Shown piece after piece: positions 5,085-62,314 of a stretch of DNA of 64,000 bases (the first letter of the stretch is position 1; each line of letters begins with the position of its first letter). The position numbers and the translations under genes were made by a program. The notes beneath the pieces are model-generated. The model had not been told where the DNA came from and made no database searches. It saw only the letters and a program-made list of their open reading frames with translations. The stretch is from an uncultured Chloroflexia bacterium (GTDB lineage Bacteria; Chloroflexota; Dehalococcoidia; GIF9; UBA5629): positions 87,660-151,659 of the forward strand of contig CAVWAG010000004.1 of the NCBI GenBank assembly GCA_963752975.1. The letters are read 5' to 3'.

Positions 5085-5115
5085 GTGCAATAACCTCCTT
5101 TTATTTACGGCATAT

Positions 5116-10392: not shown

Positions 10393-11913
10393 ATGCATCT
10401 TCCGGGAATGCTTGAGGCCAGGGCCTCTTCCATCGGGACACGCCCCGCCATCATCTACAAGGACCAGCCGGTCACCTACAGCCAGCTTCTTTCCAGGTCC
10501 CAGAAATTCGCCCACGCCCTGCAGAAACTGGGAGTAAAGCCCGACGACAAGGTCGCCCTCATGCTGAATAACTGTCCCGAATTCCTGGCGGCTTATTTCG
10601 CCTGCTCCTACATAGGCGCCGTGGCCGTCCCCGTCAACATCTTCTACAAGGAGCGCGAACTGGAATACCTGCTGCGCGACAGCGACTCCGTGGCGCTGAT
10701 AGCCAGCCCGGCCTTCGCCGAACACTTTAGCAAGATCAAAACAAAGCCGCCGCTCTTCAGGTGGCTGATAGTCAACGGCCCATACCGCGAAGGTCTTGAA
10801 TTATCCAAGCTCGAATCGGAAGCGCCCGCAACCCCCTTCAAGGCCTTATGCAGCGAGGAGAGTGTGGCCGAGATTCTCTACACCTCGGGCACCACGGGCG
10901 AGCCCAAGGGTACTATGCTCACGCACGGCAACCTCTTCTTCCATGCCGACGCCATCGTCAACCTGCTCAAGCTCGACGACCACGACCGCGCCATGATGGT
11001 CGTGCCGGCCTTCCACGGCTACGGCATCACCGTTATGCTCTGCTCCTTAGTGACGGGCTCATCGTTCGTGCTGCTCGACCCCTTTAACCCGGTCGAGGTC
11101 TTCCAGCAGATAGAAAAACATAAAGTAACCTTCCTGCCCATGGTGGTGGCCATGTATTTCATGCTTATCAACCACCCCGACCGCAGCAAATATGACCTCT
11201 CCTCCCTGCGCATCGGCATCTCGGGCGCCTCGGCCATGCCGGCCCAGCTTATGAAAGACGCCTCGGCGGCGCTTAACATCAAGATACTGGAGGCCTGGGG
11301 CCTGACAGAATGCTCCGCCTCGGCCACCATGCAGCGCGCCGACCTCACCTACAAGGAGGGCAGCGTAGGACTGGCCTACCCTGGCGTCAAGGTGGGCGTA
11401 ATGGACGAGTCCGGCAAGTTGCTGGATGCCAACCAGGTGGGTGAACTGGTAATCAGCGGCCCGCTGGTGATGAAAGGATATTATAAGAAACCAAAGGAAA
11501 CCGCGGAAGTGCTGCGCGACGGCTGGCTGCACACCGGCGATATGGGTTACTATGACAGCGACGGCTACTTCTTCATGGTTGACCGTAAGAAGGAGCTGAT
11601 CAACGTGGGCGGCGAGAAGGTCTTCCCGCGCGAGGTCGAGGAGGTTATGTACAAGCACCCGGCGGTAGCCGACGCCGTGCTGATTCCGGCGACGGATGCC
11701 AAGCTGGGCGAGATACCCGTGGCCGTGGTGGTGCCCCGCCCGGGAGCAACCGTCTCGGAAAAAGATATCAAAGATTACCTCGGCGAGAGGCTGGCGCGCT
11801 TCAAGGTACCACGCAAGGTCTTCATACTTAACCAGGTCCCGCGCAACCCGATGGGCAAGATACTCAAGAAAGAACTGGTCAAGATGCTGGCCGACGGCCA
11901 GCTTGGTGTCTAA
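10393..11913 (+). CDS. AMP-dependent synthetase/ligase (long/medium-chain acyl-CoA ligase-like)
   Basis: 506 aa with YTSGTTGEPKGT, WGLTE, GDMGYYDSDGYFFMVDRKKELI and PRNPMGKILKKEL motifs. AGGAGG RBS. Confidence 0.9.
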   Translation: MHLPGMLEARASSIGTRPAIIYKDQPVTYSQLLSRSQKFAHALQKLGVKPDDKVALMLNNCPEFLAAYFACSYIGAVAVPVNIFYKERELEYLLRDSDSVALIASPAFAEHFSKIKTKPPLFRWLIVNGPYREGLELSKLESEAPATPFKALCSEESVAEILYTSGTTGEPKGTMLTHGNLFFHADAIVNLLKLDDHDRAMMVVPAFHGYGITVMLCSLVTGSSFVLLDPFNPVEVFQQIEKHKVTFLPMVVAMYFMLINHPDRSKYDLSSLRIGISGASAMPAQLMKDASAALNIKILEAWGLTECSASATMQRADLTYKEGSVGLAYPGVKVGVMDESGKLLDANQVGELVISGPLVMKGYYKKPKETAEVLRDGWLHTGDMGYYDSDGYFFMVDRKKELINVGGEKVFPREVEEVMYKHPAVADAVLIPATDAKLGEIPVAVVVPRPGATVSEKDIKDYLGERLARFKVPRKVFILNQVPRNPMGKILKKELVKMLADGQLGV

Positions 11914-46011: not shown

Positions 46012-46853
46012 ATGCCTGAATTATCGGATTACTGCAAAGCAGGAGTAGATTTATATGAGAAGCTGCATCTGGCGACCTACCCTGTGGCCATCAAATATAT
46101 ACGGGACGAGTCGGAAATACCGCCCAAAGCCGTAAGGCCTTCACAGGCTAAGCAGCAATGGAGTTTATGCCAGGCATTCACCTATTCGCGCAGGTGGGGA
46201 TGGACCGTTGCCATGACCGCTGACGATAACTTCTGTACCCCTGCCACGGCCTCGCACAGGTGGGTTGAGATATCTGCCGACGACCTGTTGCAGAGCCAGC
46301 TCTTCCAGGCCTGGCATAAGGATGTTGAAGCGGAAAAGAAGCGGCAGAAGCACGGCCTTGACCAGGTCGGCGAGGGCAACCTGCCAAAGCTGAGTCAATA
46401 CTGCGGCTTCATCAGTTCTCCCCTGGCACATGCCCCGCTAATCCCGGACAGCGTCCTGGTTTTGGCAACGGGGAAAATATCAACCATGTAATCCAGGCTA
46501 TCACTTATGAAGGTGAAAACTACCCGACGTCAACCTTCGAGGGTTTCGGGGAAACATGTATAAAAGGCGGCCTCCTGCCCCATATAACCGGGATACCTCA
46601 GATCGTTATACCCGGCATGGGAGACCGTACCTTTTCCGGCGTTTACGACTACGAGATCGCTATCGGCCTGCCTGCCAGCCTGCTCTTCGTCACGGTTCAG
46701 AATCTATTCAAGTCAGGGGGCAGGCTCAATTTGGGCAACCCGGTCAGGACGCTGCTGCCCACAGGCATCACCACAAATATCACTCCCGGCTTTAAATACA
46801 TGCGTCAGAAGATCGACGAGAGCGAAAAGAGAAAATCAGGGAAAAAAGGCTGA
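46012..46853 (+). pseudogene. DUF169 family protein, frameshifted at a T4 run (46460-46463)
   Basis: The 159-aa ORF plus a downstream frame (…ENINHVIQAITYEGENYPTSTFEGFGETCIKGG…) are collinear with the intact 277-aa paralogue. Adding one T restores the frame. Confidence 0.75.
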
Positions 46854-47097
46854 TAGCATAGCTGATGAACCAATTCAGGGACGGCGCCCGGTAGGCCTTG
46901 GCGGGTGAAGCGATTCCAAGCTTGGGTCCACAGGCTTTTACCGGCTTGCAGCCATATGCGTCCCTAACCCAATAGCCAGCGCTGTCTCCTGGCAAACGAT
47001 ACAGTAACACCGGCGAAGCCCTGATTGGCAATTCTGCACGATGTATTTTATACTGTAAGCGCGTTATTGGGGTGGTACTTTGTCTTGCAGGTAAGCT

Positions 47098-49203
47098 ATG
47101 CCATCAAAGTCAAAGCAAAATAAGGTCAAGGGCAGGATGTTGGGGCGGGTGGATTATATAGCTCTGAGCAGGGATCTTGTAGATGCTGTCGAAAGCGGCG
47201 TTTACATCGTTCAGTCCAAGAAATTCGTTTACGTAAACCCTTTCTTAGCGAAATTGACCGGTTATTCACGTGAAGAATTAATCGGTATGCGCTCCCTCAA
47301 ATTAGTACTGCCGCAGGACAGGCCGGCGGTCAGAAAGAAAGCAATCAGGAATCTGAAGAGCCGCCTTGGCCCCAAGCCTTACGAATACAGGTTCATCAAG
47401 AAGGACGGCGAGATCATGTGGGTCATGGAAAAGGTCTCTCCGATCGGATATATGGGACAGAAGGCAGCGCTGGGGAGCTTCGTGGACATTACCGAGCGCA
47501 AGCGGCTGGAAGAGGCCCTTGCACACTCTGAAAAAACGTACCGCACCATCCTGGAGAAGATGTATGACTCTTATTACGAAGTGGACCTCGCGGGCAATTT
47601 CACTTTCGTCAACGATTCTGTGTGCCTCAACCTGGGTTATTCCAGTGAAGAAATGGTGGGGCAGAGCTACCGGTTTACCACCCCGCCTGATGATATCAAG
47701 CCCCTATTTATTGCTTTCAATCAGGTATTCAATACGGGAATCCCCAATATAGGCTTCGCCCACGGAATACTCCGCAAAGACGGCAGCGTGATATTAGTCG
47801 AATCCTCGATTTCCGTGCGGGAAAACGAACAGGGCGAGATTATCGGTTTTCGGTCAGTCAGCCGTGACATTACCGAGCGCAAGCAGCTTGAAGAAGCGCT
47901 TGCACGCTCGGAAGAAAGATACCGCACCATACTTGAGCAAATGCAGGACTCCTACTACGAGGTGGACCTTGCCGGCAATTATACCTTCGTCAGTGAATCC
48001 GCAGGCCATAGCCTCGGTTATTCACGCGAAGAGCTCATAGGCAGTAATTATCGCATTTCGGTGTTTGAAGAGGATACTAGGAATATCTTCGCTGCTTTCA
48101 ACGAAGTATACAGGACAGGAAAACCAAATAAGGGGTTCGCATACAGGGTACGGCACAAGGACGGCAGCATAATATTTTCAGAAGTATCGGTTGATCTTAA
48201 AAAGAATGAGCAGGGAGAGGTTACCGGGTTCAAGTGCGTCAACCGCGACATCACCGAGCGCAAGCGGATTGAGAATGCGCTGAAGGAGAGCGAGGAGCAA
48301 TTCAGGACCGCCCTGGAGAATGCCCCGGACGGCGTCTATATGAACGACTTTGAAGGCAACTTCCTCTATGGCAACCTCAAGTGCGAGGAGATAATAGGTT
48401 ACAAGCGTGAAGAGCTTATAGGCAAGAACTTCCTGGAGTTGAATATCCTCCCTGAAGGCAGCCTTGCCAGGGCTGTAGAGCTGTTACAGGATAATATCAA
48501 TGGCAAATCCACGGGTCCCGATGAGTTAGAGCTTATAGGCAGGGACGGCCACCGCATACCCGTAGAGATCAACACCAGCGTAGTACATCGGGGCGGTCAG
48601 AAAGTCGTGCTGGCTTTTGTCAGGGACGTCACCGAGCGCAAGAAGCTGGAGCAAAAGCTCGTGGAAATGGCGACCCATGACTTCCTAACCGGGTTGCCCA
48701 ACAGGGTATTGCTGCTGGACCGTTTCAGCATGGCGGCATCGCTGGCCCACCGCAATAAGGCGCGGCTTGCCGTCATGTCGCTGGACCTGGACATGTTTAA
48801 ATCCATTAATGACACCCTCGGCCACGACGCGGGTGACCAGGTGCTTAAGGCTGTCAGCAAGCGGCTTGCGGGAACAATACGTGCCAGCGATACATTGGCC
48901 CGCGTGGGGGGAGATGAATTTATACTGGTGATGATGGAGACCAACCACTTTGAAGATGCCACTGCCATAGCCCAAAAGATCCTGGATTCTTTTAGAGAGC
49001 CGCTTTCCATTGACGGACATCAACTACACCTTTCAACCAGCGTAGGTATCGCCATCTACCCTGAAGACGCGGAGGACATAGAGACACTGACTAAGAAATC
49101 CGATGCCGCGATGTATTACTCCAAGGGTCACGGCCGCAACCAGTTCAAGTTTTTCAGCGATGGCGATGTCCGGATTAGCGGAGATCATAAGAGCGCCCCC
49201 TGA
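47098..49203 (+). CDS. sensor diguanylate cyclase: four PAS domains plus GGDEF
   Basis: 701 aa with four PAS units joined by DITERK(R/Q)LEEAL linkers. The C-terminal domain has the GGDEF motif (ARVGGDEFILV). Confidence 0.9.
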   Translation: MPSKSKQNKVKGRMLGRVDYIALSRDLVDAVESGVYIVQSKKFVYVNPFLAKLTGYSREELIGMRSLKLVLPQDRPAVRKKAIRNLKSRLGPKPYEYRFIKKDGEIMWVMEKVSPIGYMGQKAALGSFVDITERKRLEEALAHSEKTYRTILEKMYDSYYEVDLAGNFTFVNDSVCLNLGYSSEEMVGQSYRFTTPPDDIKPLFIAFNQVFNTGIPNIGFAHGILRKDGSVILVESSISVRENEQGEIIGFRSVSRDITERKQLEEALARSEERYRTILEQMQDSYYEVDLAGNYTFVSESAGHSLGYSREELIGSNYRISVFEEDTRNIFAAFNEVYRTGKPNKGFAYRVRHKDGSIIFSEVSVDLKKNEQGEVTGFKCVNRDITERKRIENALKESEEQFRTALENAPDGVYMNDFEGNFLYGNLKCEEIIGYKREELIGKNFLELNILPEGSLARAVELLQDNINGKSTGPDELELIGRDGHRIPVEINTSVVHRGGQKVVLAFVRDVTERKKLEQKLVEMATHDFLTGLPNRVLLLDRFSMAASLAHRNKARLAVMSLDLDMFKSINDTLGHDAGDQVLKAVSKRLAGTIRASDTLARVGGDEFILVMMETNHFEDATAIAQKILDSFREPLSIDGHQLHLSTSVGIAIYPEDAEDIETLTKKSDAAMYYSKGHGRNQFKFFSDGDVRISGDHKSAP

Positions 49204-49329
49204 ATTTGAGAGCTGCCACAGGAAATATCCCGGCTATTTATGCTTCTTTACAAATGTGCTTATAATATTCTAAGATTAAAGGCTGATATTTCAGGCACAT
49301 TTCATATTTAATTCGAAAAGGGGTGCAAG

Positions 49330-50691
49330 ATGAGCGAAACCGCGACTCCCGTCAAGACCGAAAAGAAGAGGGCCATCAACCGGCTTAAAAGCATGTACCC
49401 GCTGCGCAACGTCGTGCAGCAGGATTACATTGATACGCTCAAGGCCAGCAACGAGGGCAAGCCGACCGTCTGGTCGATGTTAAACTATTGGGAAGGGGAC
49501 CTTCCCCTCAAAGCCATGGGGCTGAATATCGTCTACCCGGAGAATTACGCCACCCTGCTGGCCGCTTCCGGCGCCGCCGAACCTTTCCTCGATGCTTCCG
49601 ACTCGGACGGCTTCCCCACCCACATGTGCGGCTATGGCAGGAGCACCATCGGCTATTCTTACCGCATGATGAAAGAGAACGGCGGCAAGATACCGCCCGA
49701 TGCTCCGCTGGGCGGCATGGCCAAGCCGGCCCTGCTGCTGGGCTCCGGCATCATCTGCGACGCGCGCTTCAAGTGGTTCCAGTCGCTGGCCCGCTACTTC
49801 GACGCCCCGGAATGGTGCCTCGAGATGCCGATGATGGCCACCTACGAGGGCTCCGAACCTGATTTGGAGGCCTACCAGGTGAAGTTCCTGGTAAAAGAGC
49901 TTAAGGATTTCATCGCCTTCCTGGAAAAACTTTTCAAGCGGAAAATGGACTGGGCAAAGCTGGAAGAGCTTACCGACCTGGCAGTAAAAATACACGAGAC
50001 TACCTACAAGATAAGCGAACTGCGCCAGTCGATACCCGGTCCCATGCACGCTACTGATTTCTGGAGCAGCATGCCGCCTTCCCTCTTCTTCGCCGGCGAC
50101 ATGAAGGTATCGCTAAGGTGCTACCAGGATATGCTGGACGAGGTGCAGGAGCGGGTTAATAATAAAGTATCGGGCATCAACTACCCTGAGCGCTACCGTC
50201 TCATCTTCGCCGAGCTACCGCCCTGGCATAGCCTGAAGTTCTTCGACAACCTGGCCGAGATGGGCTGGAATTTCGTCTTCGAGAGCTTCGGCTATCACGC
50301 TCCAAAGCCGCCCGACCTCAGCAAGTACAGCGACCCCTGCGAGAAGCTGGCGCGCCTCTCCCGCAATTTCATGTTCAATGTGTTCCCCGAGGCCAAGGCT
50401 GACAACATCCAGAACCCCATCGTCGAGACCTACCTCAAGATCGCCCGCGGCTTTAAAGCGGACGGCTTTTTCATGCACCCTCTAATCTCCTGCCGCGCAG
50501 CCAGTTGCAGCCTGCGCACGGTGCAGCACTGGGAACAGGAGAAATTAGACGTGCCCAGCCTCTGGGTGGAAGGGGATATCATCGACAAACGCGTCTTCAA
50601 CCCGCAGGAGGTGCTGGCCAGGGCCGAGGCTTTCGAACAGACCATGGACCACTACAGGAAGGTCAGGAAGTCCAGGGGGCTCGACTGGTAG
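49330..50691 (+). CDS. 2-hydroxyacyl-CoA dehydratase / benzoyl-CoA reductase B-type subunit family protein
   Basis: 453 aa with an HGD-D-like pattern (VWSMLNYWEGDLPLKAMGLNIVYPENY, HMCGYGRS). Confidence 0.75.
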   Translation: MSETATPVKTEKKRAINRLKSMYPLRNVVQQDYIDTLKASNEGKPTVWSMLNYWEGDLPLKAMGLNIVYPENYATLLAASGAAEPFLDASDSDGFPTHMCGYGRSTIGYSYRMMKENGGKIPPDAPLGGMAKPALLLGSGIICDARFKWFQSLARYFDAPEWCLEMPMMATYEGSEPDLEAYQVKFLVKELKDFIAFLEKLFKRKMDWAKLEELTDLAVKIHETTYKISELRQSIPGPMHATDFWSSMPPSLFFAGDMKVSLRCYQDMLDEVQERVNNKVSGINYPERYRLIFAELPPWHSLKFFDNLAEMGWNFVFESFGYHAPKPPDLSKYSDPCEKLARLSRNFMFNVFPEAKADNIQNPIVETYLKIARGFKADGFFMHPLISCRAASCSLRTVQHWEQEKLDVPSLWVEGDIIDKRVFNPQEVLARAEAFEQTMDHYRKVRKSRGLDW

Positions 50692-50716
50692 CCAATAATT
50701 AAACAGGGAGAATAAA

Positions 50717-51889
50717 ATGGTAACAGCTACGACTAAAGGGCTTTCCAGGGCACACGAGATTTACGCGGACAGAGGCAAGCGTGTGCGCGAGTTGCGCAAG
50801 GCCGGCAAGAAGATAATCGGCTACATCTGCCTCTACCCCCCGATTGAGATAATAACGGCGATGGGCATGGTGCCATTCCGCATTTTCGGCGATATGAGCG
50901 AACCGATCACAGCCGCGGACAAGGTTTCGACTACCGTGGTCTGTCCTTTCCTGCGCAGCATTATCGACCTCGGCATCAAGGGAAAATTCGATTTTCTGGA
51001 CGGCGCCGTGGGCGCGCATACCTGCGATATCGGCATGACCACCATCATTGCCTGGCGTGACTACATTAAAGACGCACCTTTCACACACCTCATCGATGTG
51101 CCCCATACCGATCATGCGCCGGCTGTTGATTACTTTGAGGGACAGATAAATTTCTTTAAACAGCATATCGAGGAATTAGCCGGGGAAAAGCTCAGCGCAG
51201 ACAAGCTTAAAAAGGCCTGTGAGTTGCATAATAAACAGCGCAAGCTGGTCAGGGATCTTTACGACCTGCGCAAATCAGATCCACCCAGGCTCAACTCGAT
51301 GGAGAACCTCGAGGTCATGGTTTCACTTTTCAGCCTGCCGGTGGAAGAGGGCAACGAACTCCTGGAAGCGGTCATCCGGGAAGTCAAAGAGCGCAGCATC
51401 AAGCCGGCCAAGAAGAAGGCCCGCCTGCTGGTGTGGGGCCCTGTTTTCGACAATACGTCACTTTACGAGCTCATAGAGAGCACCGGCGCCGACGTTGTAG
51501 TGGATGACACCTGCGTGGGCACCAGGGCCTTCTGGGCCGACGTTAAAGCCCCTTATAACCTGCATGCGCTGGCGCAGCGCTACCTGGTGGACATCAAATG
51601 CCCGCGCACCTACCGCGATACACAGCATCAAGAGACCGAACGCAGTTACGACAAGGACCTGGATAGCAGGTTCAGCTATATTAAAAAAGCCGTGACCGAC
51701 TGGCACGTTAACGGCGTCATCCTGCAGAGCGTCAAGTACTGCGACACGCACGGCTACGAGGTCCCCAACCTGAGGCATTATCTCGATACCCTGGGCATAC
51801 CCAGCATCTACATAGAGCACGACTACAGCGAGAGGTCTCTGGCCCCGATTAAAACTCGGGTGGAGGCCTTCGTGGAGACCCTGGGCTGA
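50717..51889 (+). CDS. 2-hydroxyacyl-CoA dehydratase / benzoyl-CoA reductase C-type subunit family protein
   Basis: 390 aa with GYICLYPPIEIITAMGMVPFRIFG, CPFLRS, AHTCD and KYCDTHGYE motifs. Confidence 0.75.
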   Translation: MVTATTKGLSRAHEIYADRGKRVRELRKAGKKIIGYICLYPPIEIITAMGMVPFRIFGDMSEPITAADKVSTTVVCPFLRSIIDLGIKGKFDFLDGAVGAHTCDIGMTTIIAWRDYIKDAPFTHLIDVPHTDHAPAVDYFEGQINFFKQHIEELAGEKLSADKLKKACELHNKQRKLVRDLYDLRKSDPPRLNSMENLEVMVSLFSLPVEEGNELLEAVIREVKERSIKPAKKKARLLVWGPVFDNTSLYELIESTGADVVVDDTCVGTRAFWADVKAPYNLHALAQRYLVDIKCPRTYRDTQHQETERSYDKDLDSRFSYIKKAVTDWHVNGVILQSVKYCDTHGYEVPNLRHYLDTLGIPSIYIEHDYSERSLAPIKTRVEAFVETLG

Positions 51890-51909
51890 GGTAAAACAGC
51901 AAGCCCCGC

Positions 51910-52785
51910 ATGGAAAACGCGACTCCAGCTCTTTTCTTCGCCGGCATCGATATAGGCTCCACCATGTCCAAGGCAGTCGTGGTGGACGCACAAGGCGCGA
52001 TGCGCGGCTACGTGGTCGGTCCCACCGGCGCTGAGCACCGCCGCCGCGCCAATAAGGTCATGGAGGACGTCCTTCTCAAGGCAGGGATCACGCTCGACCA
52101 GGTCGCCTACATCATCTCCACCGGCTACGGCCGCGTCAACGTCCCCTTCGCCGATAAGCAGGTCACCGAGCTTACCTGCCACGCCAGAGGGGTAGCCTCC
52201 CTTTTCCCCGATGTGCGAACTGCAATAGACATCGGCGGCCAGGACGCCAAGGTACTCAAGATTAAGAGTGGCAGGCTGACCGACTTCCTCACCAACGATA
52301 AGTGCGCCGCCGGCACGGGCAGGTTCCTGGAGGTGGCAGCGGAGACGCTGGGACTGGAGCTCAACGAGATGGGGCGGATATCACTGCAGAGCGACACGCC
52401 CGTCAAGATAAACAGCCTGTGCACTATCTTCGCCCAGCAGGAGATAATCTCCCGCCTTTCCGAGGGACAGCCTTTGACGGATATACTGGCCGGCGTTTAC
52501 ATCGCCGTAACCACGCGCGTGGTCAAGCTGGCCAGGCAACTCAAGGTAGAGCCGCCCGTGGTCTTCACCGGCGGAGTGGCCAAAAACTCGGGCATGGTCA
52601 AAGCTATGGAGACCGTACTGGGCATGCCCGTCTTGGTCCCGGAAGAGCCTCTCATCACCGGCGCACTGGGCGCCGCCATACTGGCGCGTGACGAGGCTTT
52701 TAAGCTGGTGCAGGACGGCGATTTTAAGATGGCGAAAAAACAGCTCAGCGAAGCTTATATAGAATTCATGGAGAAAGGCCGGTGA
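51910..52785 (+). CDS. BcrA/BadF/HgdC-type ATPase (acyl-CoA reductase/dehydratase activating subunit), copy 1
   Basis: 291 aa with AGIDIGSTMSKAVVVD, DIGGQDAKV, NDKCAAGTGRFLE and SLCTIFAQQE motifs (two cluster Cys). Confidence 0.8.
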   Translation: MENATPALFFAGIDIGSTMSKAVVVDAQGAMRGYVVGPTGAEHRRRANKVMEDVLLKAGITLDQVAYIISTGYGRVNVPFADKQVTELTCHARGVASLFPDVRTAIDIGGQDAKVLKIKSGRLTDFLTNDKCAAGTGRFLEVAAETLGLELNEMGRISLQSDTPVKINSLCTIFAQQEIISRLSEGQPLTDILAGVYIAVTTRVVKLARQLKVEPPVVFTGGVAKNSGMVKAMETVLGMPVLVPEEPLITGALGAAILARDEAFKLVQDGDFKMAKKQLSEAYIEFMEKGR

Positions 52786-53555
52786 CCAACTATTTCCTCG
52801 GTATCGACATCGGCGCGGCAGCCAGCAAGGCCGTAATCATCGACGGCCAAAAGAAGATCATGGGTGCGGGTGTGATACCCTCGGGCACCAACTACGCCAC
52901 CACCGCCGCGGCGGTAAAGGCCGAGGCTTTAAAACAGGCCGGACTTCAACTCGCTGATATCACCTTCAGCGCCGCCACCGGCATCGGCGGGCGCAACGCC
53001 GGCGCCGATAGCTATCATGGCGTGATAATCTGCGACGCCCGAGGCGTGAACCTCACCTTCCCCGGCGTGCGCACTATCATAGATATAGGAGGCCAGGGCA
53101 GCCAGGTCATCACCATGGACGAAAACGGGCGGGTCATCAACTTCAACGTCTCCGAGATATGCGCCACCGGCAGCGCGCGGCTGCTACAGGTCGTGGCCCG
53201 CATATTGCAGATAAGCATCGACGAGATCGGTCCGCTATCCCTAAAAGCCACTAAACCTTCCAGCTTCTCCACCTCCTGCACCGTTTTCCTTGAAACCGAG
53301 GTCATCACACGCATCTCGCAGGGCGATAGCCCCGAGGATATCCTGGCCGGCATCCACCGCTCGATCGCCGATAAGATAAGCGGCATGTCTCGCGGCGTAG
53401 CCCTTGAGAAAGATTTCGCGGTCATCGGCGGCGGCGCGCTCGACATCGGCCTGGTGCAGGCCATCGATGAGAAGCTCGGCATAAAAACCCTCGTACCCGA
53501 AAACCCCCGGCTTATGGCTGCGCTGGGCGCCGCGGTTATCGCCGCTGAGCATTAG
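52782..53555 (+). CDS. BcrD/BadG/HgdC-type ATPase, copy 2
   Basis: 257 aa. The GTG start overlaps the upstream TGA (GTGA). Motifs LGIDIGAAASKAVIID, DIGGQGSQV, SEICATGSARLLQ and TSCTVFLETE. Confidence 0.8.
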   Translation: MTNYFLGIDIGAAASKAVIIDGQKKIMGAGVIPSGTNYATTAAAVKAEALKQAGLQLADITFSAATGIGGRNAGADSYHGVIICDARGVNLTFPGVRTIIDIGGQGSQVITMDENGRVINFNVSEICATGSARLLQVVARILQISIDEIGPLSLKATKPSSFSTSCTVFLETEVITRISQGDSPEDILAGIHRSIADKISGMSRGVALEKDFAVIGGGALDIGLVQAIDEKLGIKTLVPENPRLMAALGAAVIAAEH

Positions 53556-53605
53556 TCCATTATTGGGAGGCTATATTGCTAAAATACCAGAACGGAGGCA
53601 ACGAG

Positions 53606-54628
53606 ATGGAGAAAGCAGAAAGCGCCTGGATAACCGGGGCAAATAAAACGGTCTACCAACCCGGTCAAACAACCGGCCACTACGAAAGTTTTTTCCTGCG
53701 GGCCAACCACCCGTCGCTTCCCCTGGCTTTCTGGATACGGTATACCATCTTCAGCCCGCAGGGCCACCCCGAAAAAGCTATCGGTGAACTGTGGGCGGTC
53801 TATTTCGACGGTCAAAACGTGCTGGATTTTGCCGTTAAGAAAGAGGTGCCTTTCAACCAGTGCTCTTTCAGTTCATCCGGGCTGGATGCAAAGATCGGTG
53901 ATGCCCTGCTAAATACAGGCAAGCTGACTGGAGACGCCTCGGCCCATAACCACGAAATTAAGTGGGATTTGACCTATAGCGGTGATAGCAAACCCCTTTT
54001 CCTGCTGCCACTGAAAATGTATTCAGCTGGCTTTCCCAAAGCTAAAAGCATCGTACCCCTTCCCATGGCTCAATTCAACGGTAGTCTCATCGTGGACGGT
54101 AAAACTGTAAACATAGATAAATGGATCGGCAGCCAGAACCATAACTGGGGCTCCAGGCACACCGATCTCTACGCCTGGGGACAGGTGGCCGGCTTCGACA
54201 ACAACCCGGACAGCTTCCTCGAGGTCGCCACGGCCAGGGTTAAAATCGGTCCCTTTTGGACGCCAAACATGACCCCTGTCGTGCTGCGGCATAAAGGCAA
54301 GGAATATGCCCTTAACAGCATGGCCCAAACCTTGAAAGCCCACGGGCACTTCACTTATTTTGACTGGCAATTCTCCTCGGAGAACGACGTGGTTAGTCTT
54401 GCAGGAATGATAACCGGCGATCGCAACCAGTTCGTGGGACTGAATTATTACAACCCGCCGGGAGGCAACAAGCACTGCCTCAATAGCAAGATAGCCTCCT
54501 GTGACCTGAGGATCACCTACAAGCAGGGCGCAAATAAGGGCTCATCCGACCTGCTGACCACCCGCAACCGCGCAGCCTTTGAGATCCTCACTGATAAAAG
54601 GGACCACGGCATCACCATCCAGGTGTAA
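53606..54628 (+). CDS. hypothetical protein (beta-rich; no family recognised)
   Basis: The ATG at 53606 follows GGAGG. 340 aa. Only a vague resemblance to CrtC/AttH/tocopherol-cyclase-like proteins (GHYESFFLRANHP). Confidence 0.5.
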   Translation: MEKAESAWITGANKTVYQPGQTTGHYESFFLRANHPSLPLAFWIRYTIFSPQGHPEKAIGELWAVYFDGQNVLDFAVKKEVPFNQCSFSSSGLDAKIGDALLNTGKLTGDASAHNHEIKWDLTYSGDSKPLFLLPLKMYSAGFPKAKSIVPLPMAQFNGSLIVDGKTVNIDKWIGSQNHNWGSRHTDLYAWGQVAGFDNNPDSFLEVATARVKIGPFWTPNMTPVVLRHKGKEYALNSMAQTLKAHGHFTYFDWQFSSENDVVSLAGMITGDRNQFVGLNYYNPPGGNKHCLNSKIASCDLRITYKQGANKGSSDLLTTRNRAAFEILTDKRDHGITIQV

Positions 54629-54811
54629 GCACCAAATTGCTTACTGAAAAGGCAATTTGCTGCGCAGAGTAACGGCACTTTTTCATAAAATGATCCTCCT
54701 TTAAGTATATCAATCATCCCACGAAACTAACATCTATCTGGTCCAGTTTTCGGAGCGCAGATCAATTTCCTTGGCCCATAACATTTCAATGAGCCCATTT
54801 CAATAGGCTAA

Positions 54812-54880: not shown

Positions 54881-55258
54881 ATGAGGAAATTAGCTAAAAC
54901 ATTTAAGGCATTGTCTGACGAGACCAGACTGAGGATCTTAAACATACTGCTGGAACGTGAGTGCTGTGTCTGTGAGTTAATGCAGGTACTGGATTTAACG
55001 CAATCCAGAACATCACGGCATTTGATCACACTTTGCGATGCGGGCTTTTTAAAGTTCAGGCGTCAGGGCTTGTGGGCCATGTATTCCATCGACTGGGAGA
55101 GTATGGATAAATATCATATTGATTTGGCCGGAATTGTGCGTGAAGCTCTGAAAGATAATCAGACGGCGATTTTTGACAGGCAGAAACTGGCCACTACGGA
55201 AAAGATTGGACTGACAGTCTGCTCAGCTACCGGTAGTAAAAATGGCTGCAACAACTAA
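54881..55258 (+). CDS. arsR: ArsR/SmtB family metalloregulator
   Basis: 125 aa with LSDETRLRILNILLERECCVCELMQVLDLTQSRTSRHL (wHTH with a CVC metalloid-binding motif). Confidence 0.9.
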   Translation: MRKLAKTFKALSDETRLRILNILLERECCVCELMQVLDLTQSRTSRHLITLCDAGFLKFRRQGLWAMYSIDWESMDKYHIDLAGIVREALKDNQTAIFDRQKLATTEKIGLTVCSATGSKNGCNN

Positions 55259-56339
55259 AGTGGAATCCTGCATTTGCGGCATATCAACTCCCCCAAGTGC
55301 TGCACCTAACGGAAAAACCCTTGATAACAGGAAGCTTTATCTGCTGCTGGGCATAGGTCTGGCCTTATGGCTGATCGTATATTATTGGCTTGAAACGGCG
55401 TCCAATTTCCTGACTTTTAACATATTTCATCTGTCTGCGGATAGCCATTTGGGCAGCAGCGTGGCTTTCTTTCTGTACGATGCACCTAAAGTCATCATGC
55501 TCCTGGCAATAATAGTATTCGGCGTCGGAATAATACGCTCATTCTTCACACCGGAGCGGACCAGGCAGATGCTGGCGGGCAAACGTGAATTCGTCGGTAA
55601 CGTTATGGCTGGCGGACTTGGCATTGTCACGCCTTTCTGTTCATGCTCCGCCGTTCCGCTTTTCATTGGATTTGTGGAGACCGGCGTTCCTCTCGGCGTC
55701 ACGTTCACTTTTCTGATCGCAGCGCCGATGATCAACGAGGTGGCCCTCGTCCTCCTCTTCAGCATGTTCGGCTGGAAAATAGCTCTGCTCTACGTGGCAA
55801 CTGGACTATTCATCGCCATCACCGCCGGCTGGGTAATTGGCCGCCTTAAGCTGGAGAGATACATTGAGAGCTGGGTGCATGAAATAAAGATGGGCGAGTC
55901 CGGCGATGCGGCGGGAGACCTTAAATTTGCAGATCGAATTCGGTATGGCCTAACTGCGGTGAAGGAGATCGTAGGTAAAGTCTGGCCCTACGTCCTTGCT
56001 GGAATAGCCGTAGGAGCGATCATACACGGATATGTACCCGAAGGCCTGATGGCGTCATTTATGGGCAAGGACGTCTGGTGGGCAGTCCCTGCGGCCGTGC
56101 TGCTTGGTGTCCCCATGTATTCCAATGCGGCAGGGTTCATTCCAATAATGCAAGCGCTCATGGAGAAGGGCGCAGCCCTGGGCACGACGCTTGCCTTTAT
56201 GATGGCGGTCATAGGCCTATCTCTGCCGGAAACGATAATACTGCGAAAAGTGCTGAAATGGCAGCTCATCGCTGTATTCCTCGGGGTTGTATCCGTCGGC
56301 ATAATCATAATTGGCTATCTTTTTAATGCCATACTCTGA
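55242..56339 (+). CDS. arsP: DUF318-type permease, ArsP-like organoarsenical efflux permease
   Basis: 365 aa, multi-TM. The TPFCSCSAVPLF motif is, as I recall, characteristic of ArsP. Adjacent to arsR. The start is uncertain (overlaps the arsR end). Confidence 0.75.
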   Translation: MAATTKVESCICGISTPPSAAPNGKTLDNRKLYLLLGIGLALWLIVYYWLETASNFLTFNIFHLSADSHLGSSVAFFLYDAPKVIMLLAIIVFGVGIIRSFFTPERTRQMLAGKREFVGNVMAGGLGIVTPFCSCSAVPLFIGFVETGVPLGVTFTFLIAAPMINEVALVLLFSMFGWKIALLYVATGLFIAITAGWVIGRLKLERYIESWVHEIKMGESGDAAGDLKFADRIRYGLTAVKEIVGKVWPYVLAGIAVGAIIHGYVPEGLMASFMGKDVWWAVPAAVLLGVPMYSNAAGFIPIMQALMEKGAALGTTLAFMMAVIGLSLPETIILRKVLKWQLIAVFLGVVSVGIIIIGYLFNAIL

Positions 56340-56365
56340 CATTGCAGCATTTAGCGAACAGATAC

Positions 56366-56609
56366 ATGGATAAACTGATGGGCATTATGAAGGCACTATC
56401 CGATGAAACAGAGGCAACAGGGTAGATTCTCAGTTTATGCGATAGATTGGAAGAGATTTGACTCATGCGGGGCCGACATGCTGAAGGCCATACGCAGGGG
56501 ACTCGAAGGAAACAAGCTGGCTAAGGAAGACTTACGTAAACTGGCCCAGGCCGGGAGCGCCCTGCCTGATGCACACACAAAGCATAAATCTAATTTTATG
56601 GAAAGGTAA
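56366..56609 (+). pseudogene. arsR remnant lacking the HTH/metal-binding core
   Basis: The N-terminal piece MDKLMGIMKALSDET is joined (out of frame by 1) to RQQGRFSVYAIDWKRFD..., matching intact ArsR residues MKALSDETR and RRQGLWAMYSIDWESMD. About 45 codons between them are missing. Confidence 0.65.
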
Positions 56610-56616
56610 TGAACAG

Positions 56617-57096
56617 ATGAAAACTATTATCTTGATGATGACAACGTGTCTTTTGGTACTTTCGACTATGTTGCTGGGTGGGTGCGCAGGTACGCAGCCA
56701 GATTTGCAAACTTCAAAAGCTGACAATGCTGTTACTGACACGGCTAAACCGGACAGTGTCGAACTCATCTATTTTCACACGAAAGTAGCTTGCCATTGCA
56801 TGTCAACTGTGCAAGATAATATCAAGTACGCTGTCGATACATATTTTGCAAATGAAACAGCTACAGGTAAAGTAAAATTGACCATGATTGTCTCGGACGA
56901 TCCGGCGAATGAAGAGCTCGTCAAAAGATATGATGCCCTGCCTTTCGTTCTTTTCATCAAGGAAACACGGGGAAATAAGGCAAGGACCTATCCGGTTAGC
57001 GATATCTGGAATATGACAGGGGACGATAACCGGGACAAGCTGATCAATTTTATCAAGGTGACTGTCACCGACATATTGGATGGGAAGACCTCATAA
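56617..57096 (+). CDS. ArsF-like lipoprotein, divergent copy (CxC instead of CxxC)
   Basis: Lipobox [35 protein letters not shown] aligns with IDVIYFHANQRCVTCLCFEKSINKVIDTYF of the copies at 58601 and 59321. Confidence 0.6.
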
Positions 57097-57139
57097 AAGC
57101 TATGCCGATACAAAAATACAATCAAATGGGGGATTGCAA

Positions 57140-58222: not shown

Positions 58223-58239
58223 AGTAATGGAGGTTAACA

Positions 58240-58506
58240 ATGAACATTAAATTATTAGGTCCCGGCTGCGCCAAATGCCAGAACCTGGAAAAAGCAGTGA
58301 AAGAGGTAGTAGCCGCCTTAAAGCTAGACATCAGCGTTGAAGATGTAAGAGACATGAAAAAAATCATGCAGTATCCGATTTTGGCGACACCCGGCCTCGT
58401 AATCAATGAAAAACTCGTAATGAGCGGAAAAGTGCCGTCAAAAGCCGAGGTCGAACAATTAATTATGAATGCCCTGGCTGCTGAGGACAGGGAGAAAAAC
58501 AAATGA
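58240..58506 (+). CDS. small thioredoxin-fold protein (redox-active disulfide protein 2 / TM0996-MTH895 type)
   Basis: 88 aa with MNIKLLGPGCAKCQNLE (CxxC) and ATPGLVINEKLV. GGAGG RBS. Confidence 0.8.
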   Translation: MNIKLLGPGCAKCQNLEKAVKEVVAALKLDISVEDVRDMKKIMQYPILATPGLVINEKLVMSGKVPSKAEVEQLIMNALAAEDREKNK

Positions 58507-58600
58507 TTAGGTCGAGCGGCGCGGAGCAGATTGCGTGTGCAAGAAAAAACGGTAATTAATTCACAATTTATTCACACGAAATTCACATTTCGCTCATAAA

Positions 58601-59248: not shown

Positions 59249-59320
59249 TGTGGCCGTCAGGTTTATTAATTGGGCGTATATAATCGAATACCGTCCCTTA
59301 AAGGAGGACCACTAAATTTG

Positions 59321-60663: not shown

Positions 60664-60725
60664 TTTGGAGTGACATGCTTTGAACGGCAATTAGTGATTA
60701 ATAACAGCGATTTATAAAGGAATGA

Positions 60726-61160: not shown

Positions 61161-61184
61161 GAATTCCGAAAAAGGAGATACACT

Positions 61185-61621: not shown

Positions 61622-61658
61622 CTATAGATAAATAAAAATTAAAAAAGGAGGAACAACA

Positions 61659-62258: not shown

Positions 62259-62314
62259 AATAATCCGTCGCTTTGCCAACGGAACCGGGGATTGTTGCCC
62301 CCGAGGATAATTAA

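What the first reader, a model, noticed from the sequence alone, without database searches (positions are those of the whole stretch)
49330..54628. Four-gene benzoyl-CoA-reductase-like cluster with two different ATPase subunits plus an unknown fifth gene
Two HGD-D/BcrB-BcrC-type subunits (453 and 390 aa; Cys motifs HMCGYG, CPFLRS, AHTCD, KYCDTHGYE) are followed by two distinct BcrA/BcrD-type ATPases (291 and 257 aa). Each ATPase has the two Cys expected to ligate a bridging [4Fe-4S] cluster (KCAAGTG/SLCT and EICATGS/TSCT). The second ATPase is translationally coupled through a GTGA overlap.

A heterodimeric ATPase module is the hallmark of class I ATP-dependent aryl-CoA reductases. 2-hydroxyacyl-CoA dehydratases instead use a separate homodimeric activator.

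The subunit order (B, C, then the two ATPases) and the short 291-aa A-type subunit differ from the Thauera and Azoarcus prototypes as I recall them. A 340-aa protein of unrecognised family follows directly. With four acyl-CoA ligases in the window, this may be a novel ATP-dependent CoA-ester reductase or dehydratase.
Basis: partly seen in the sequence, partly recalled or inferred. Interest (0 to 1): 0.7.

Follow-up and report, generated by a model that had tools for sequence, protein, structure and literature searches.

The report
Uncharacterised ATP-driven benzoyl-CoA-reductase-like enzyme operon
This is a real five-gene operon from a Dehalococcoidia bacterium that encodes an ATP-powered iron-sulfur enzyme built like a benzoyl-CoA reductase, but it belongs to a widespread, untested lineage whose substrate is unknown, so the usual "aromatic degradation" label is not proven.

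Summary
Five co-directional genes lie at 49330-54628: two HGD-D subunits (453 and 390 aa), two different BcrAD/BadFG ATPases (291 and 257 aa, with a GTGA overlap), and a 340-aa protein.

All predicted cluster ligands align with solved structures. The alpha subunit has the three Cys of BzdO/HadB. The beta subunit has all six Cys of the [8Fe-9S] double cubane of BzdN/DCCP, which HadC and MbdN lack. Each ATPase has the two bridging-cluster Cys.

No subunit reaches any curated equivalog cutoff. Alpha is only 21-23% identical to BzdO, MbdO or HadB, and BzdO residues H131, Q274 and Y298 are replaced.

The alpha-beta-Q-P order is conserved in about 50 Dehalococcoidia MAG loci. The two ATPases are an ancient, asymmetric pair; the 257-aa one has degenerate phosphate motifs.

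The fifth protein has an AttH/tocopherol-cyclase-like double-barrel fold and is only variably linked to the cluster.

Best reading: a class-I-BCR-like, ATP-dependent reductase for an unidentified acyl-CoA. It is a new variant of a known kind. MAG studies of Dehalococcoidia call BCR-like genes benzoyl-CoA reductase. No dienoyl-CoA pathway genes are nearby. Interest is moderate.

The parts
49330..50691 (+). Alpha (catalytic, BzdO/HadB-like) subunit, 453 aa. Predicted [4Fe-4S] ligated by C100, C143 and C388. E71, Y102, D144, R146 and R389 are invariant in the family.
   Evidence: Pfam HGD-D E=7.9e-41. Best NCBIfam hits are HadB at 113 bits (cutoff 750) and BzdO at 67 bits (cutoff 449). Conservation over 78 sequences is. 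AF2 model pLDDT is 82.8, with TM 0.78 to HadB, 0.78 to BzdO and 0.73 to MbdO.
50717..51889 (+). Beta (electron-storage, BzdN/DCCP-like) subunit, 390 aa. It carries the six Cys of a double-cubane [8Fe-9S] site: C38, C76, C103, C266, C295 and C342.
   Evidence: Pfam HGD-D E=3e-84. NCBIfam double_cubane 211 bits and BzdN 172 bits, both below cutoff. The Cys-by-Cys alignment to BzdN and DCCP holds, while HadC and MbdN lack three of the six. Five Cys are invariant in the family and C103 is C in 55 and S in 10 of 65 sequences.
51910..52785 (+). Q-type ASKHA ATPase, 291 aa. Canonical motifs DIGST, DIGGQD, NDKCAAGTGRF and TGGVAKN. C132 and C171 would ligate the bridging [4Fe-4S].
   Evidence: BcrAD_BadFG E=8e-63. 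TIGR00241 273 bits, above its cutoff of 125. MbdQ 243 bits, HadI 241 bits and HgdC 202 bits, with both Cys aligned. All motifs are invariant in 52 sequences.
52782..53555 (+). P-type, divergent ASKHA ATPase partner, 257 aa, with a GTG start overlapping the Q stop (GTGA). C127 and C166 are retained. The phosphate motifs are degenerate (DIGAA, GGQG).
   Evidence: BcrAD_BadFG E=1.6e-46. It is 37% identical to the Q subunit. Both Cys are invariant; phosphate-1 is DIG[S/A][A/V] and the phosphate-2 Asp is replaced by S/G in the family. MbdP also lacks this Asp, reading GGQT. The P family is monophyletic and long-branched. The overlap is shown.
53606..54628 (+). Fifth gene, 340 aa (alternative TTG start at 53576). 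A cytoplasmic all-beta protein with an AttH/tocopherol-cyclase/25-phosphosteroid-lyase-like double-barrel fold. Putative lyase, hydratase or cyclase accessory enzyme.
   Evidence: Weak Tocopherol_cycl hit E=0.0018 and Rv3169_fam hit E=9e-7. About 4000 'hypothetical' homologues. AF2 pLDDT 88.5. Foldseek: AttH 2ich E=4.7e-10, 25-phosphosteroid lyase 9fzn E=4.5e-8, Diels-Alderases CghA/Fsa2/Phm7. It lies directly downstream of P in L005, L034, L021, L022 and L031, and within about 5-10 kb in L086-L088.
10393..11913 (+). Acyl-CoA ligase (506 aa), inferred to be the cognate substrate-activating enzyme. It is displaced 37 kb from the cluster in this genome.
   Evidence: Its close orthologues (962-996 bits, or 620 on a truncated contig) lie immediately upstream of the alpha gene in L001, L008-L011, L027, L029 and L041. 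NCBIfam PRK06187 at 507 bits, above its cutoff of 476. Best solved relatives are feruloyl-CoA synthetase (292 bits) and 4-coumarate-CoA ligase (273 bits); benzoate-CoA ligase scores only 173 bits. The link to the cluster is an inference from synteny in relatives.

Best explanation
The operon encodes a four-subunit, ATP-driven, low-potential iron-sulfur enzyme of the BCR/HAD radical-enzyme superfamily. It works like a class I (Bzd-type) aryl-CoA reductase.

Proposed mechanism:
- The Q (291 aa) and P (257 aa) ATPases form an asymmetric heterodimer that holds one bridging [4Fe-4S] cluster on four Cys.
- This cluster is reduced by a ferredoxin-type donor. ATP hydrolysis then drives the electron uphill into the six-Cys double-cubane [8Fe-9S] cluster of the beta subunit, which stores electrons.
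- The electrons pass to the three-Cys [4Fe-4S] cluster of the alpha subunit, which has an open, water- or substrate-binding Fe. There a CoA thioester is reduced, with E71 as the proton relay.

The substrate is not established. The alpha active site differs from BzdO at the benzoyl-binding and catalytic positions and carries family-specific invariant D144, R146 and R389. I therefore read the substrate as an acyl-CoA other than plain benzoyl-CoA, possibly a substituted aromatic, phenylpropanoid-derived or alicyclic acid activated by a feruloyl/4-coumarate/FadD-type ligase.

The 340-aa AttH-fold protein is an accessory lyase, hydratase or cyclase acting before or after this step in some lineages.

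Shown here: gene content, ligand conservation, family placement and synteny. Inferred: cluster types, electron path, reductase chemistry and substrate class.
For: 1. Architecture: two HGD-D subunits plus two BcrAD_BadFG subunits in one operon.
2. The alpha ligands C100, C143 and C388 align with BzdO C95, C128 and C380. W54 aligns with W46, E71 with E65 and Y102 with Y97 (residue roles from PMC11971306). The three Cys, E71 and Y102 are invariant in 78 family sequences; position 54 stays aromatic (W/Y/F in 77 of 78).
3. Beta has all six double-cubane Cys of BzdN/DCCP. It also keeps the equivalents of BzdN R53, R267 and H330 (from the alignment). No known dehydratase has these six Cys; HadC has three (PMC11971306 Discussion).
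4. The two ATPases are 37% identical and each has both bridging-cluster Cys. The Q and P families are each monophyletic across both family clades and a Bacillota locus, so the heterodimer is ancient and maintained. P has lost the phosphate-2 Asp, as has MbdP.
5. The alpha-beta-Q-P order is conserved in about 50 of 78 genome loci.
6. A CoA-ester substrate is supported by an acyl-CoA ligase immediately upstream of alpha, or of solo alpha paralogues, in many loci, and by neighbouring ACAD, ECH, thiolase and 3HCDH genes.
Against: - No biochemical data exist for any member of this family.
- Alpha scores slightly better against HadB (100-113 bits) than against BzdO or MbdO (55-67 bits).
- BzdO catalytic H131 is Arg here, and thioester-binding Q274 and Y298 are Leu and Phe.
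- MbdN, from a genuine reductase, has only three Cys. The six-Cys site is therefore not a universal reductase marker, and its presence is suggestive rather than decisive.
- No ferredoxin or ferredoxin-reducing enzyme is adjacent to the cluster.
- No neighbour family is shared by more than 13 of 78 loci, so no pathway context fixes the substrate.
- Reference sampling for the trees was limited to sequences with solved structures.
Confidence: 0.6

Rival explanations
1. It is a genuine benzoyl-CoA reductase (class I), as MAG studies assume for Dehalococcoidia. [quoted passage not shown]
For: It has the same four-subunit architecture. It has a Bzd-like six-Cys beta, and BzdO W46, E65 and Y97 are conserved in alpha. 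BzdO and MbdO are themselves only 22% identical, so low identity alone does not exclude aryl-CoA reduction. Sources name homologues 'benzoyl-CoA reductase subunit B'. The literature infers BCR in Dehalococcoidia.
Against: All four subunits score far below the Bzd and Bcr equivalog cutoffs, as do the 67 nearest 50%-identity cluster representatives of alpha. BzdO H131, Q274, Y298, L302 and E381 are replaced by R, L, F, S and R, which are invariant or nearly so in the family. No Dch, Had or Oah equivalog was found in the window or among recurrent neighbours. The linked ligase is closer to feruloyl/4-coumarate/FadD-type ligases than to benzoate-CoA ligase. Several alpha paralogues per genome, each with its own ligase or transporter, argue for several different substrates.
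Confidence: 0.15
2. It is a 2-hydroxyacyl-CoA dehydratase-type (HAD-like) radical dehydratase whose activator gene was duplicated. ATP would be used only catalytically to inject one recycled electron.
For: Alpha's best sequence and profile hit is HadB. P's best solved hit is the HadI activator, and Q scores equally to HadI and MbdQ. An acryloyl-CoA-reductase-like ACAD and an ECH occur near some loci, including L005 and L034.
Against: Beta carries six double-cubane Cys, which HadC lacks. Known HAD activators are homodimers encoded by one gene (PMC7317905), whereas here two anciently diverged, asymmetric ATPases are co-conserved. No CoA-transferase or 2-hydroxyacid dehydrogenase was seen among the neighbours, and AMP-forming ligases are linked instead. 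Alpha falls outside the HadB/BzdO/MbdO group in the NJ tree, though with weak support. HadB and HadC equivalog scores are 113 against a cutoff of 750 and 160 against 700.
Confidence: 0.15
3. It is a DCCP-like reductase acting on a small non-CoA molecule (of the acetylene, azide or hydrazine type), or a non-catalytic or maturation complex.
For: Beta's best NCBIfam profile is 'double_cubane' at 211 bits. The physiological role of DCCPs is itself unknown.
Against: DCCPs are homodimers with a double cubane in each subunit and a homodimeric reductase. Here alpha has lost the second sub-cluster's ligands, as BzdO and HadB have, and retains the Trp that fills that space in BzdO. The repeated ligase-alpha adjacency points to CoA esters.
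Confidence: 0.05

Closest known systems
Bzd-type class I benzoyl-CoA reductase BzdNOPQ (Aromatoleum sp. CIB; BzdNO structure 8S02, PMC11971306)
   Same: Four subunits of similar sizes (447, 379, and about 270-300 aa each for the ATPases). The beta/N subunit has all six [8Fe-9S] Cys plus the equivalents of R53, R267 and H330. The alpha/O subunit has three Cys plus the equivalents of W46, E65 and Y97. Two different ASKHA ATPases each carry two Cys. Beta's best solved hit is BzdN (167 bits).
   Different: Alpha is only 22% identical to BzdO, and beta is 28-29% identical to BzdN. H131, Q274, Y298, L302 and E381 are replaced. The gene order is O-like, N-like, Q-like, P-like rather than N, O, P, Q. 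All equivalog scores are far below cutoff. No benzoyl-CoA lower-pathway genes are nearby.
3-methylbenzoyl-CoA reductase MbdONPQ (Thauera chlorobenzoica structures 9G87/9GAI; mbd operon of Azoarcus sp. CIB, PMC4424350)
   Same: The operon starts with the O-type catalytic subunit. The Q-type ATPase is Q291's best solved match (243 bits, 45% identity). The second ATPase (MbdP) also lacks the phosphate-2 Asp.
   Different: MbdN has only three of the six beta Cys. Alpha is 21% identical to MbdO. P257 is not orthologous to MbdP (29% identity, separate branches).
(R)-2-hydroxyisocaproyl-CoA dehydratase HadBC with activator HadI (3O3M, 4EHT)
   Same: Same fold: alpha model TM 0.78 to HadB. HadB is alpha's best sequence hit (100 bits). 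Both have a three-Cys catalytic cluster and a Glu in the YPEN motif. The ATPases are 38-46% identical to HadI.
   Different: HadC has three Cys and a [4Fe-5S] cluster, not six Cys. The activator is a single-gene homodimer used catalytically. The pathway uses a CoA-transferase and a 2-hydroxyacid dehydrogenase, neither of which is seen here.
Double-cubane cluster protein DCCP with DCCP-R (6ENO, 7YYL)
   Same: Beta shares the six ligating Cys, with comparable spacing, and 29% identity. NCBIfam double_cubane is beta's top profile.
   Different: DCCP is a homodimer with one ATPase gene. Beta lacks the seventh, non-ligand Cys of the DCCP motif. Here a three-Cys alpha partner and two ATPases are present.
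AttH / tocopherol cyclase / CrtC / 25-phosphosteroid lyase / decalin-forming Diels-Alderase double-barrel fold (for the fifth gene)
   Same: The predicted all-beta double-barrel fold matches. Foldseek probability is 1.0 with TM about 0.5 to 2ICH, 9FZN, 6KAW and 7E5T. There are weak Pfam Tocopherol_cycl and NCBIfam Rv3169_fam hits.
   Different: Sequence identity is 8-12%, and TM is only 0.45-0.56. Catalytic residues were not compared. The family has its own invariant motif, WxGSQNHNWGxxHTDxYAWGQV. No function is known for any member.

Membership tests
Class I benzoyl-CoA reductase (Bzd/Bcr/Mbd types) | Heterotetramer genes: two HGD-D-type subunits plus two different BcrA/BcrD-type ATPases | tested here: met
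   Pfam and NCBIfam domain hits. The ATPases are 37% identical and form separate conserved families.
Class I benzoyl-CoA reductase (Bzd/Bcr/Mbd types) | Catalytic subunit with a three-Cys [4Fe-4S]-OH2 site and the conserved Glu proton donor (BzdO C95, C128, C380, E65) | tested here: met
   C100, C143, C388 and E71 align with these residues and are invariant in 78 sequences.
Class I benzoyl-CoA reductase (Bzd/Bcr/Mbd types) | Benzoyl- and thioester-binding and catalytic residues of BzdO (H131, Y97, Q274, Y298, L302) | tested here: not met
   Only Y97 (Y102) is kept. H131 is R146, Q274 is L296, Y298 is F315 and L302 is S319. MbdO also lacks H131, so this set may be specific to the Bzd type.
Class I benzoyl-CoA reductase (Bzd/Bcr/Mbd types) | Scores above the curated equivalog cutoffs (BzdN/O/Q, BcrA/B/C/D) | tested here: not met
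   Best scores against cutoffs: BzdO 67 vs 449, BcrB 51 vs 487, BzdN 172 vs 454, BcrC 138 vs 421, BzdQ 186 vs 380, BcrA 160 vs 578, BcrD 127 vs 313.
Class I benzoyl-CoA reductase (Bzd/Bcr/Mbd types) | Genomic association with dienoyl-CoA hydratase, 6-hydroxycyclohexenoyl-CoA dehydrogenase, the ring hydrolase Oah/BamA, and benzoate-CoA ligase | tested here: not met
   None was found in the 64-kb window or among recurrent neighbours in 78 loci. The ligases are PRK06187/FadD/4CL-like. The whole genome could not be searched.
Class I benzoyl-CoA reductase (Bzd/Bcr/Mbd types) | Stoichiometric ATP hydrolysis coupled to two-electron reduction of an aryl-CoA | not testable with these tools
   This requires enzyme assays.
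Bzd-type BCR specifically | N/gamma subunit with six Cys ligating an [8Fe-9S] double cubane | tested here: met
   C38, C76, C103, C266, C295 and C342 align with the BzdN and DCCP ligands and are conserved in the family. Cluster identity itself is inferred.
2-hydroxyacyl-CoA dehydratase (Had/Hgd/Fld/Lcd) | Beta subunit with a three-Cys [4Fe-4S]/[4Fe-5S] cluster | tested here: not met
   Beta has three additional conserved Cys at the positions where HadC has P, A and no aligned ligand.
2-hydroxyacyl-CoA dehydratase (Had/Hgd/Fld/Lcd) | Single-gene homodimeric activator | tested here: not met
   Two distinct ATPase genes are co-conserved in about 50 loci.
2-hydroxyacyl-CoA dehydratase (Had/Hgd/Fld/Lcd) | Equivalog-level similarity to HadB/HadC; neighbouring CoA-transferase and 2-hydroxyacid dehydrogenase | tested here: not met
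   HadB scores 113 against a cutoff of 750 and HadC 160 against 700. No such neighbours were seen. Hgd, Fld and Lcd sequences themselves were not available for comparison.
Double-cubane cluster protein (DCCP/YjiM) | Homodimer in which every subunit carries the 6/7-Cys motif, plus one DCCP-R ATPase | tested here: not met
   Alpha has only three ligand Cys. There are two ATPases. Beta scores 211 against a cutoff of 350 for NF040772.
AttH / tocopherol cyclase superfamily (fifth gene) | Double beta-barrel fold | tested here: met
   AF2 pLDDT 88.5. Foldseek E=4.7e-10 to 2ICH and 4.5e-8 to 9FZN, with TM about 0.5.
AttH / tocopherol cyclase superfamily (fifth gene) | Pfam PF14249 above the gathering score; shared catalytic residues | tested here: not met
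   17.9 bits against a cutoff of 26.6. Catalytic residues were not compared.

The most novel reading that the evidence does not exclude
Dehalococcoidia carry a modular, ATP-driven 'super-reducing' platform. One beta-Q-P electron-charging module (a double cubane plus an asymmetric ATPase heterodimer with one degenerate nucleotide site) would serve several paralogous alpha catalytic subunits. Each alpha is encoded next to its own acyl-CoA ligase, transporter and regulator.

This would let these strict anaerobes reduce a range of non-benzoyl CoA esters, for example lignin- or humic-derived phenylpropanoid, substituted aromatic or alicyclic acids. The AttH-fold protein and a HemN-like radical SAM enzyme would act as dedicated accessory steps. 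It would be a fourth functional type in the BCR/HAD superfamily.
Probability: 0.2. Interest if true: 0.75.

Novelty: new variant of a known kind. Interest (0 to 1): 0.5.

Why it matters
Class I BCR-type enzymes are among the few biological systems that push electrons to about -1 V. Only a handful have been characterised: Bcr, Bzd, Mbd, the Had/Hgd/Fld/Lcd dehydratases, and DCCP.

This cluster belongs to a large, uncharacterised lineage centred on Dehalococcoidia from lake sediments, peat and groundwater. Environmental genomics papers infer aromatic-compound degradation in Dehalococcoidia from BCR-like genes such as bzdQ.

The analysis shows the label is not justified at the level of the catalytic subunit. 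The active site is different, no lower pathway is present, and the ligase type is different. The electron-delivery machinery, however, is reductase-like.

If the substrate were identified, it would add a new reaction to this radical-enzyme family. It would also change how carbon-cycling potential is inferred for a very abundant subsurface group. As it stands, this is a solid candidate for biochemistry rather than a surprise.

Tried and rejected
- An exact-sequence look-up of the alpha protein found no contig. The source was instead approximated by L005 and L034, which are about 94% DNA-identical over 46992-54633.
- The promoter/terminator scan gave nothing beyond chance. The Rfam scan of the window found no RNA family, and no tRNAs were found.
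- I searched for a conserved pathway context by clustering all neighbour ORFs in 78 loci. No family occurs in more than 13 loci. I therefore rejected any context-based substrate assignment.
- I tested whether the two roughly 670-aa proteins at 29366-33516 were FadH- or OYE-type dienoyl/naphthoyl-CoA reductases. They are alkaline-phosphatase-superfamily proteins.
- A first bootstrapped tree with Biopython timed out and a second failed on saturated distances. It was redone with capped Kimura distances. Deep nodes have only 46-78% support, so I claim only 'separate lineage', not a sister group.
- I considered using H131 of BzdO as a BCR marker and rejected it, because MbdO has Phe there. I considered the six-Cys beta as a universal BCR marker and rejected that too, because MbdN has three Cys.
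- The literature search for the Mbd structure paper and for 'mbdONQP' found nothing in the library. Only 'the operon starts with mbdO' could be verified.
Only NCBIfam profiles for Bcr were available.

Full report
**What is there.** The + strand between 49330 and 54628 carries five tightly packed genes.
- A 453-aa and a 390-aa protein, both PF06050 HGD-D (E=7.9e-41 and 3e-84).
- A 291-aa and a 257-aa protein, both PF01869 BcrAD_BadFG (E=8e-63 and 1.6e-46).
- A fifth ORF that most likely starts at ATG 53606 (340 aa). A GGAGG lies 6 nt upstream, and homologues are about 340 aa.

The second ATPase starts at a GTG that overlaps the stop of the first (GTGA at 52782-52785). Gaps are 25, 20, -4 and 50 nt, and no terminator-like site lies on the + strand in the gaps between the genes.

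**Origin.** The closest relatives are metagenome-assembled Dehalococcoidia from lake sediment, peat and groundwater. L005 (CAIMUM010000033.1) and L034 are about 94% identical at the DNA level over window 46992-54633. That stretch includes the upstream PAS-GGDEF gene, the four enzyme genes and the fifth gene.

**Placement in the superfamily.** No subunit reaches any curated NCBIfam equivalog cutoff.

| Subunit | Best profile scores vs cutoff |
|---|---|
| alpha | HadB 113 vs 750; BzdO 67 vs 449; BcrB 51 vs 487 |
| beta | double_cubane 211 vs 350; BzdN 172 vs 454; HadC 160 vs 700; BcrC 138 vs 421 |
| Q | BzdQ 186 vs 380 |
| P | BcrA 145 vs 578; BcrD 127 vs 313 |

Against solved structures, alpha hits HadB (100 bits), BzdO (55) and MbdO (55). 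Beta hits BzdN (167), HadC (124), DCCP (119) and MbdN (88).

I rebuilt the aligned parts of these reference sequences from the HMMER output. With them, alpha is 21-23% identical to each of HadB, BzdO and MbdO, and beta is 27-29% identical to BzdN, HadC and DCCP.

In neighbour-joining trees the alpha and beta families each form their own branch outside the references. Deep nodes have only 46-78% bootstrap support. BzdO and MbdO, both genuine aryl-CoA reductase subunits, are themselves only 22% identical. Sequence distance therefore cannot decide function.

A full HMMER scan of 1.84 billion cluster representatives found 103 relatives at E<1e-30, the nearest at 44% identity. None of the 67 nearest full-length representatives approaches a HadB, BzdO or BcrB equivalog (best E-values 1e-89, 2e-47 and 1e-50). 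The AF2 model of alpha (pLDDT 82.8) superposes equally well on HadB (TM 0.78), BzdO (0.78) and MbdO (0.73).

Conclusion: this is a separate, uncharacterised deep lineage of the BCR/HAD family.

**Cofactor-ligand test.** I used the BzdNO structure paper (PMC11971306) as the key.
- In alpha, C100, C143 and C388 align with the BzdO [4Fe-4S]-OH2 ligands C95, C128 and C380.
- W54 aligns with W46, the residue that fills the space of the lost sub-cluster. E71 aligns with the proton donor E65, and Y102 with Y97.
- The three Cys, E71 and Y102 are invariant in 78 family sequences. Position 54 varies but stays aromatic (W in 41, Y in 29, F in 7 of 78).
- BzdO H131, Q274, Y298, L302 and E381 correspond to R146, L296, F315, S319 and R389. 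D144, R146 and R389 are invariant in this family.
- The iron-sulfur chemistry is therefore retained, but the substrate pocket is different. Two invariant arginines next to the cluster suggest an anionic or strongly polarised group. This is an inference.

In beta, C38, C76, C103, C266, C295 and C342 align one-to-one with the six ligands of the [8Fe-9S] double cubane of BzdN and DCCP. HadC lacks three of them, and so does MbdN. Five are invariant in the family and C103 is Cys in 55 and Ser in 10 of 65 sequences. The spacing fits the DCCP motif minus its seventh, non-ligand Cys (PMC7317905). The double cubane is known only from reductases (BzdN, DCCP). Because MbdN lacks it, it is not a universal reductase marker.

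**The ATPases.** Both carry the two Cys that bind the bridging [4Fe-4S] cluster in HgdC, HadI and MbdQ.
- Q291 has fully canonical motifs (DIGST, DIGGQD, NDKCAAGTGRF, TGGVAKN), invariant in 52 sequences.
- P257 has DIG[S/A][A/V] and GGQ[S/G] (no Asp), while both Cys are invariant.
- MbdP, the second ATPase of 3-methylbenzoyl-CoA reductase, also lacks that Asp (GGQT).
- Q and P are 37% identical.
- In a tree with HadI, HgdC, MbdQ, MbdP and DCCP-R, the Q sequences and the P sequences each form one clade. These clades span both Dehalococcoidia sub-clades and a Bacillota locus. P is long-branched and is not orthologous to MbdP.

The heterodimer is thus ancient, maintained and asymmetric. It is not a recent activator duplication.

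**Comparative genomics.** Of 78 genome loci, about 50 show the complete order alpha-beta-Q-P. This holds in the 80-99% clade and in a clade about 52% identical. Syntrophales and Spirochaetota loci have only alpha-beta.

The orthologue of window ligase 10393-11913 lies directly upstream of alpha in L001, L008-L011, L027, L029 and L041. In the window it is 37 kb away, near a Mutator-type transposase fragment.

Several genomes have extra 'solo' alpha paralogues with no beta or ATPase genes beside them. Each sits next to a ligase or a TetR regulator and an MFS transporter (L001, L008, L010 and L027; L002-L004; L024-L026). This suggests that alpha is the substrate-specific module.

No neighbour family is shared by more than 13 loci. 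Recurrent neighbours are:
- a HemN-like radical SAM protein (12 loci; PRK08629 at 405 bits, above its cutoff of 355);
- acyl-CoA dehydrogenase and enoyl-CoA hydratase;
- in the 52% clade, a biotin carboxylase plus carboxyltransferase.

No dienoyl-CoA hydratase, Had or Oah equivalog appears. The window's ligases are PRK06187-type. Ligase 10393-11913 is closest to feruloyl-CoA synthetase (292 bits) and 4-coumarate-CoA ligase (273 bits), against 173 bits for benzoate-CoA ligase.

**The fifth gene.** It belongs to a family of about 4000 'hypothetical' proteins in Chloroflexota and Syntrophales. Its only profile hits are weak ones, to tocopherol cyclase (E=0.0018) and Rv3169_fam.

The AF2 model (pLDDT 88.5) is an all-beta double barrel. 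Foldseek matches AttH NE1406 (E=4.7e-10, TM 0.54), 25-phosphosteroid lyase (4.5e-8) and the decalin-forming Diels-Alderases CghA, Fsa2 and Phm7. These proteins bind hydrophobic substrates and catalyse elimination, hydration or cyclisation.

It directly follows P in L005, L034, L021, L022 and L031. In L086-L088 it lies in an island downstream of the cluster's beta-Q-P genes (the fetched loci begin inside the beta gene). That island reads: PadR, ligase, (solo alpha), MFS, (DUF35 plus thiolase), MFS, radical SAM, the fifth-gene homologue, ECH. In Syntrophales its context is unrelated, next to pst/pho genes. It is a plausible but facultative accessory.

**Interpretation.** The best-supported model (confidence 0.6) is a Bzd-like, ATP-dependent reductase.
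- The Q-P heterodimer, probably with one catalytically weakened site, energises electrons.
- These go into a double-cubane store in beta.
- Alpha then reduces a CoA ester at an open-Fe [4Fe-4S] cluster.

The substrate is unidentified and probably not plain benzoyl-CoA. The rivals are a genuine benzoyl-CoA reductase (0.15), a HAD-type dehydratase with two activators (0.15) and a DCCP-like non-CoA reductase (0.05).

**Comparison and novelty.** The machinery is known in kind: class I BCR, Bzd type. The lineage, the alpha active site and the independently diverged ATPase pair are not characterised. The gene order starts with the O-like subunit, as in the mbd operon. The Q subunit's length is normal for Bzd/Mbd types.

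MAG studies of Dehalococcoidia already label BCR-like genes as benzoyl-CoA reductase. I rate this a new variant of a known kind, of moderate interest.

**Limits.**
- There is no biochemistry for this family.
- The trees use few references and simple distance methods.
- Cluster types are inferred from ligand conservation.
- The source genome could not be searched for lower-pathway genes.
- The mbdONQP order beyond 'mbdO first' rests on my memory.

Noticed in passing
window 43101-44516 (+) and 24219-25598 (-): Two proteins of about 460-470 aa have no Pfam hit. Both give weak NCBIfam hits to reductive dehalogenase TIGR02486 (E=4e-8 and 2.5e-10, far below cutoff). One also hits QueG weakly. They may be divergent RDH/QueG-like Fe-S proteins in a Dehalococcoidia genome.
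   Followed up: no
window 3814-5090 (-): An MFS transporter is split into two overlapping ORFs, 4377-5090 and 3814-4401. This looks like a frameshift, a pseudogene or an assembly error.
   Followed up: no
window 13263-14129 (-), with ligases at 10393-11913 and 14478-16154: A Mutator-family transposase fragment lies among the ligase genes. In related genomes the orthologue of ligase 10393-11913 is directly upstream of the alpha gene. Its 37-kb separation here looks like a rearrangement.
   Followed up: partly
window 22553-24175, 29366-31381, 31495-33516, 25627-27303 (all -): Three paralogous Phosphodiest (alkaline-phosphatase-superfamily) proteins lie with an MBL-fold alkyl sulfatase, MFS transporters and a TetR regulator. 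This may be an organosulfate or phosphoester utilisation island.
   Followed up: no
window 46012-46491 (+) and 27443-28276 (-): DUF169 is present twice. One copy is full-length. The other is 159 aa and covers only profile positions 2-131 of 209, next to a CCG-domain (HdrD-like) protein at 45176-45970.
   Followed up: no
window 47098-49203 (+): A four-PAS plus GGDEF diguanylate cyclase sits directly upstream of the operon. It is collinear with the operon in the two closest genomes (L005, L034) but not in other relatives.
   Followed up: partly
window 54881-63115 (+): Downstream of the operon lies a run of ArsR, an ArsP-type permease, an SBF symporter, DsbD_2, FmdE-domain and TauE/SafE genes. 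It looks like a metal/metalloid or sulfur-anion handling block unrelated to the cluster. The first part (to about 57645) is collinear in L034.
   Followed up: no
L001 16709-18085; L002-L004; L008, L010, L024-L027: 'Solo' alpha paralogues (76-80% identical to the window alpha) have no adjacent beta or ATPase genes. Each sits next to a ligase or TetR regulator and an MFS transporter. In L001, L008, L010 and L027 they lie about 5 kb downstream of a complete alpha-beta-Q-P cluster.
   Followed up: partly
L002 5920-20538: The solo alpha in L002 is flanked by xanthine-dehydrogenase-family molybdoenzyme genes (two 818-aa MoCo subunits, Fer2_2, FAD_binding_5, XdhC) and NuoE/F-like genes. The arrangement is reminiscent of 4-hydroxybenzoyl-CoA-reductase-type enzymes, which hints at aromatic metabolism.
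   Followed up: no
PDB 9G87 chain B (MbdN) aligned to window 50717-51889: The gamma subunit of 3-methylbenzoyl-CoA reductase has only three of the six double-cubane Cys. It has Gln, Phe and a gap at the positions of C38, C266 and C295. The [8Fe-9S] site is therefore not common to all class I reductases.
   Followed up: yes
L006, L007, L012, L013, L015, L017, L019, L021-L023, L025, L031; L086-L088: A HemN-like radical SAM gene (PRK08629 family) recurs just downstream of the alpha-beta-Q-P cluster. It is often adjacent to the AttH-fold gene. It is absent from the window.
   Followed up: partly
window 50001-54000: G+C of the enzyme genes (0.56-0.58) is higher than that of the flanks (0.49-0.53 upstream, 0.44-0.49 downstream). 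This was not analysed further.
   Followed up: no
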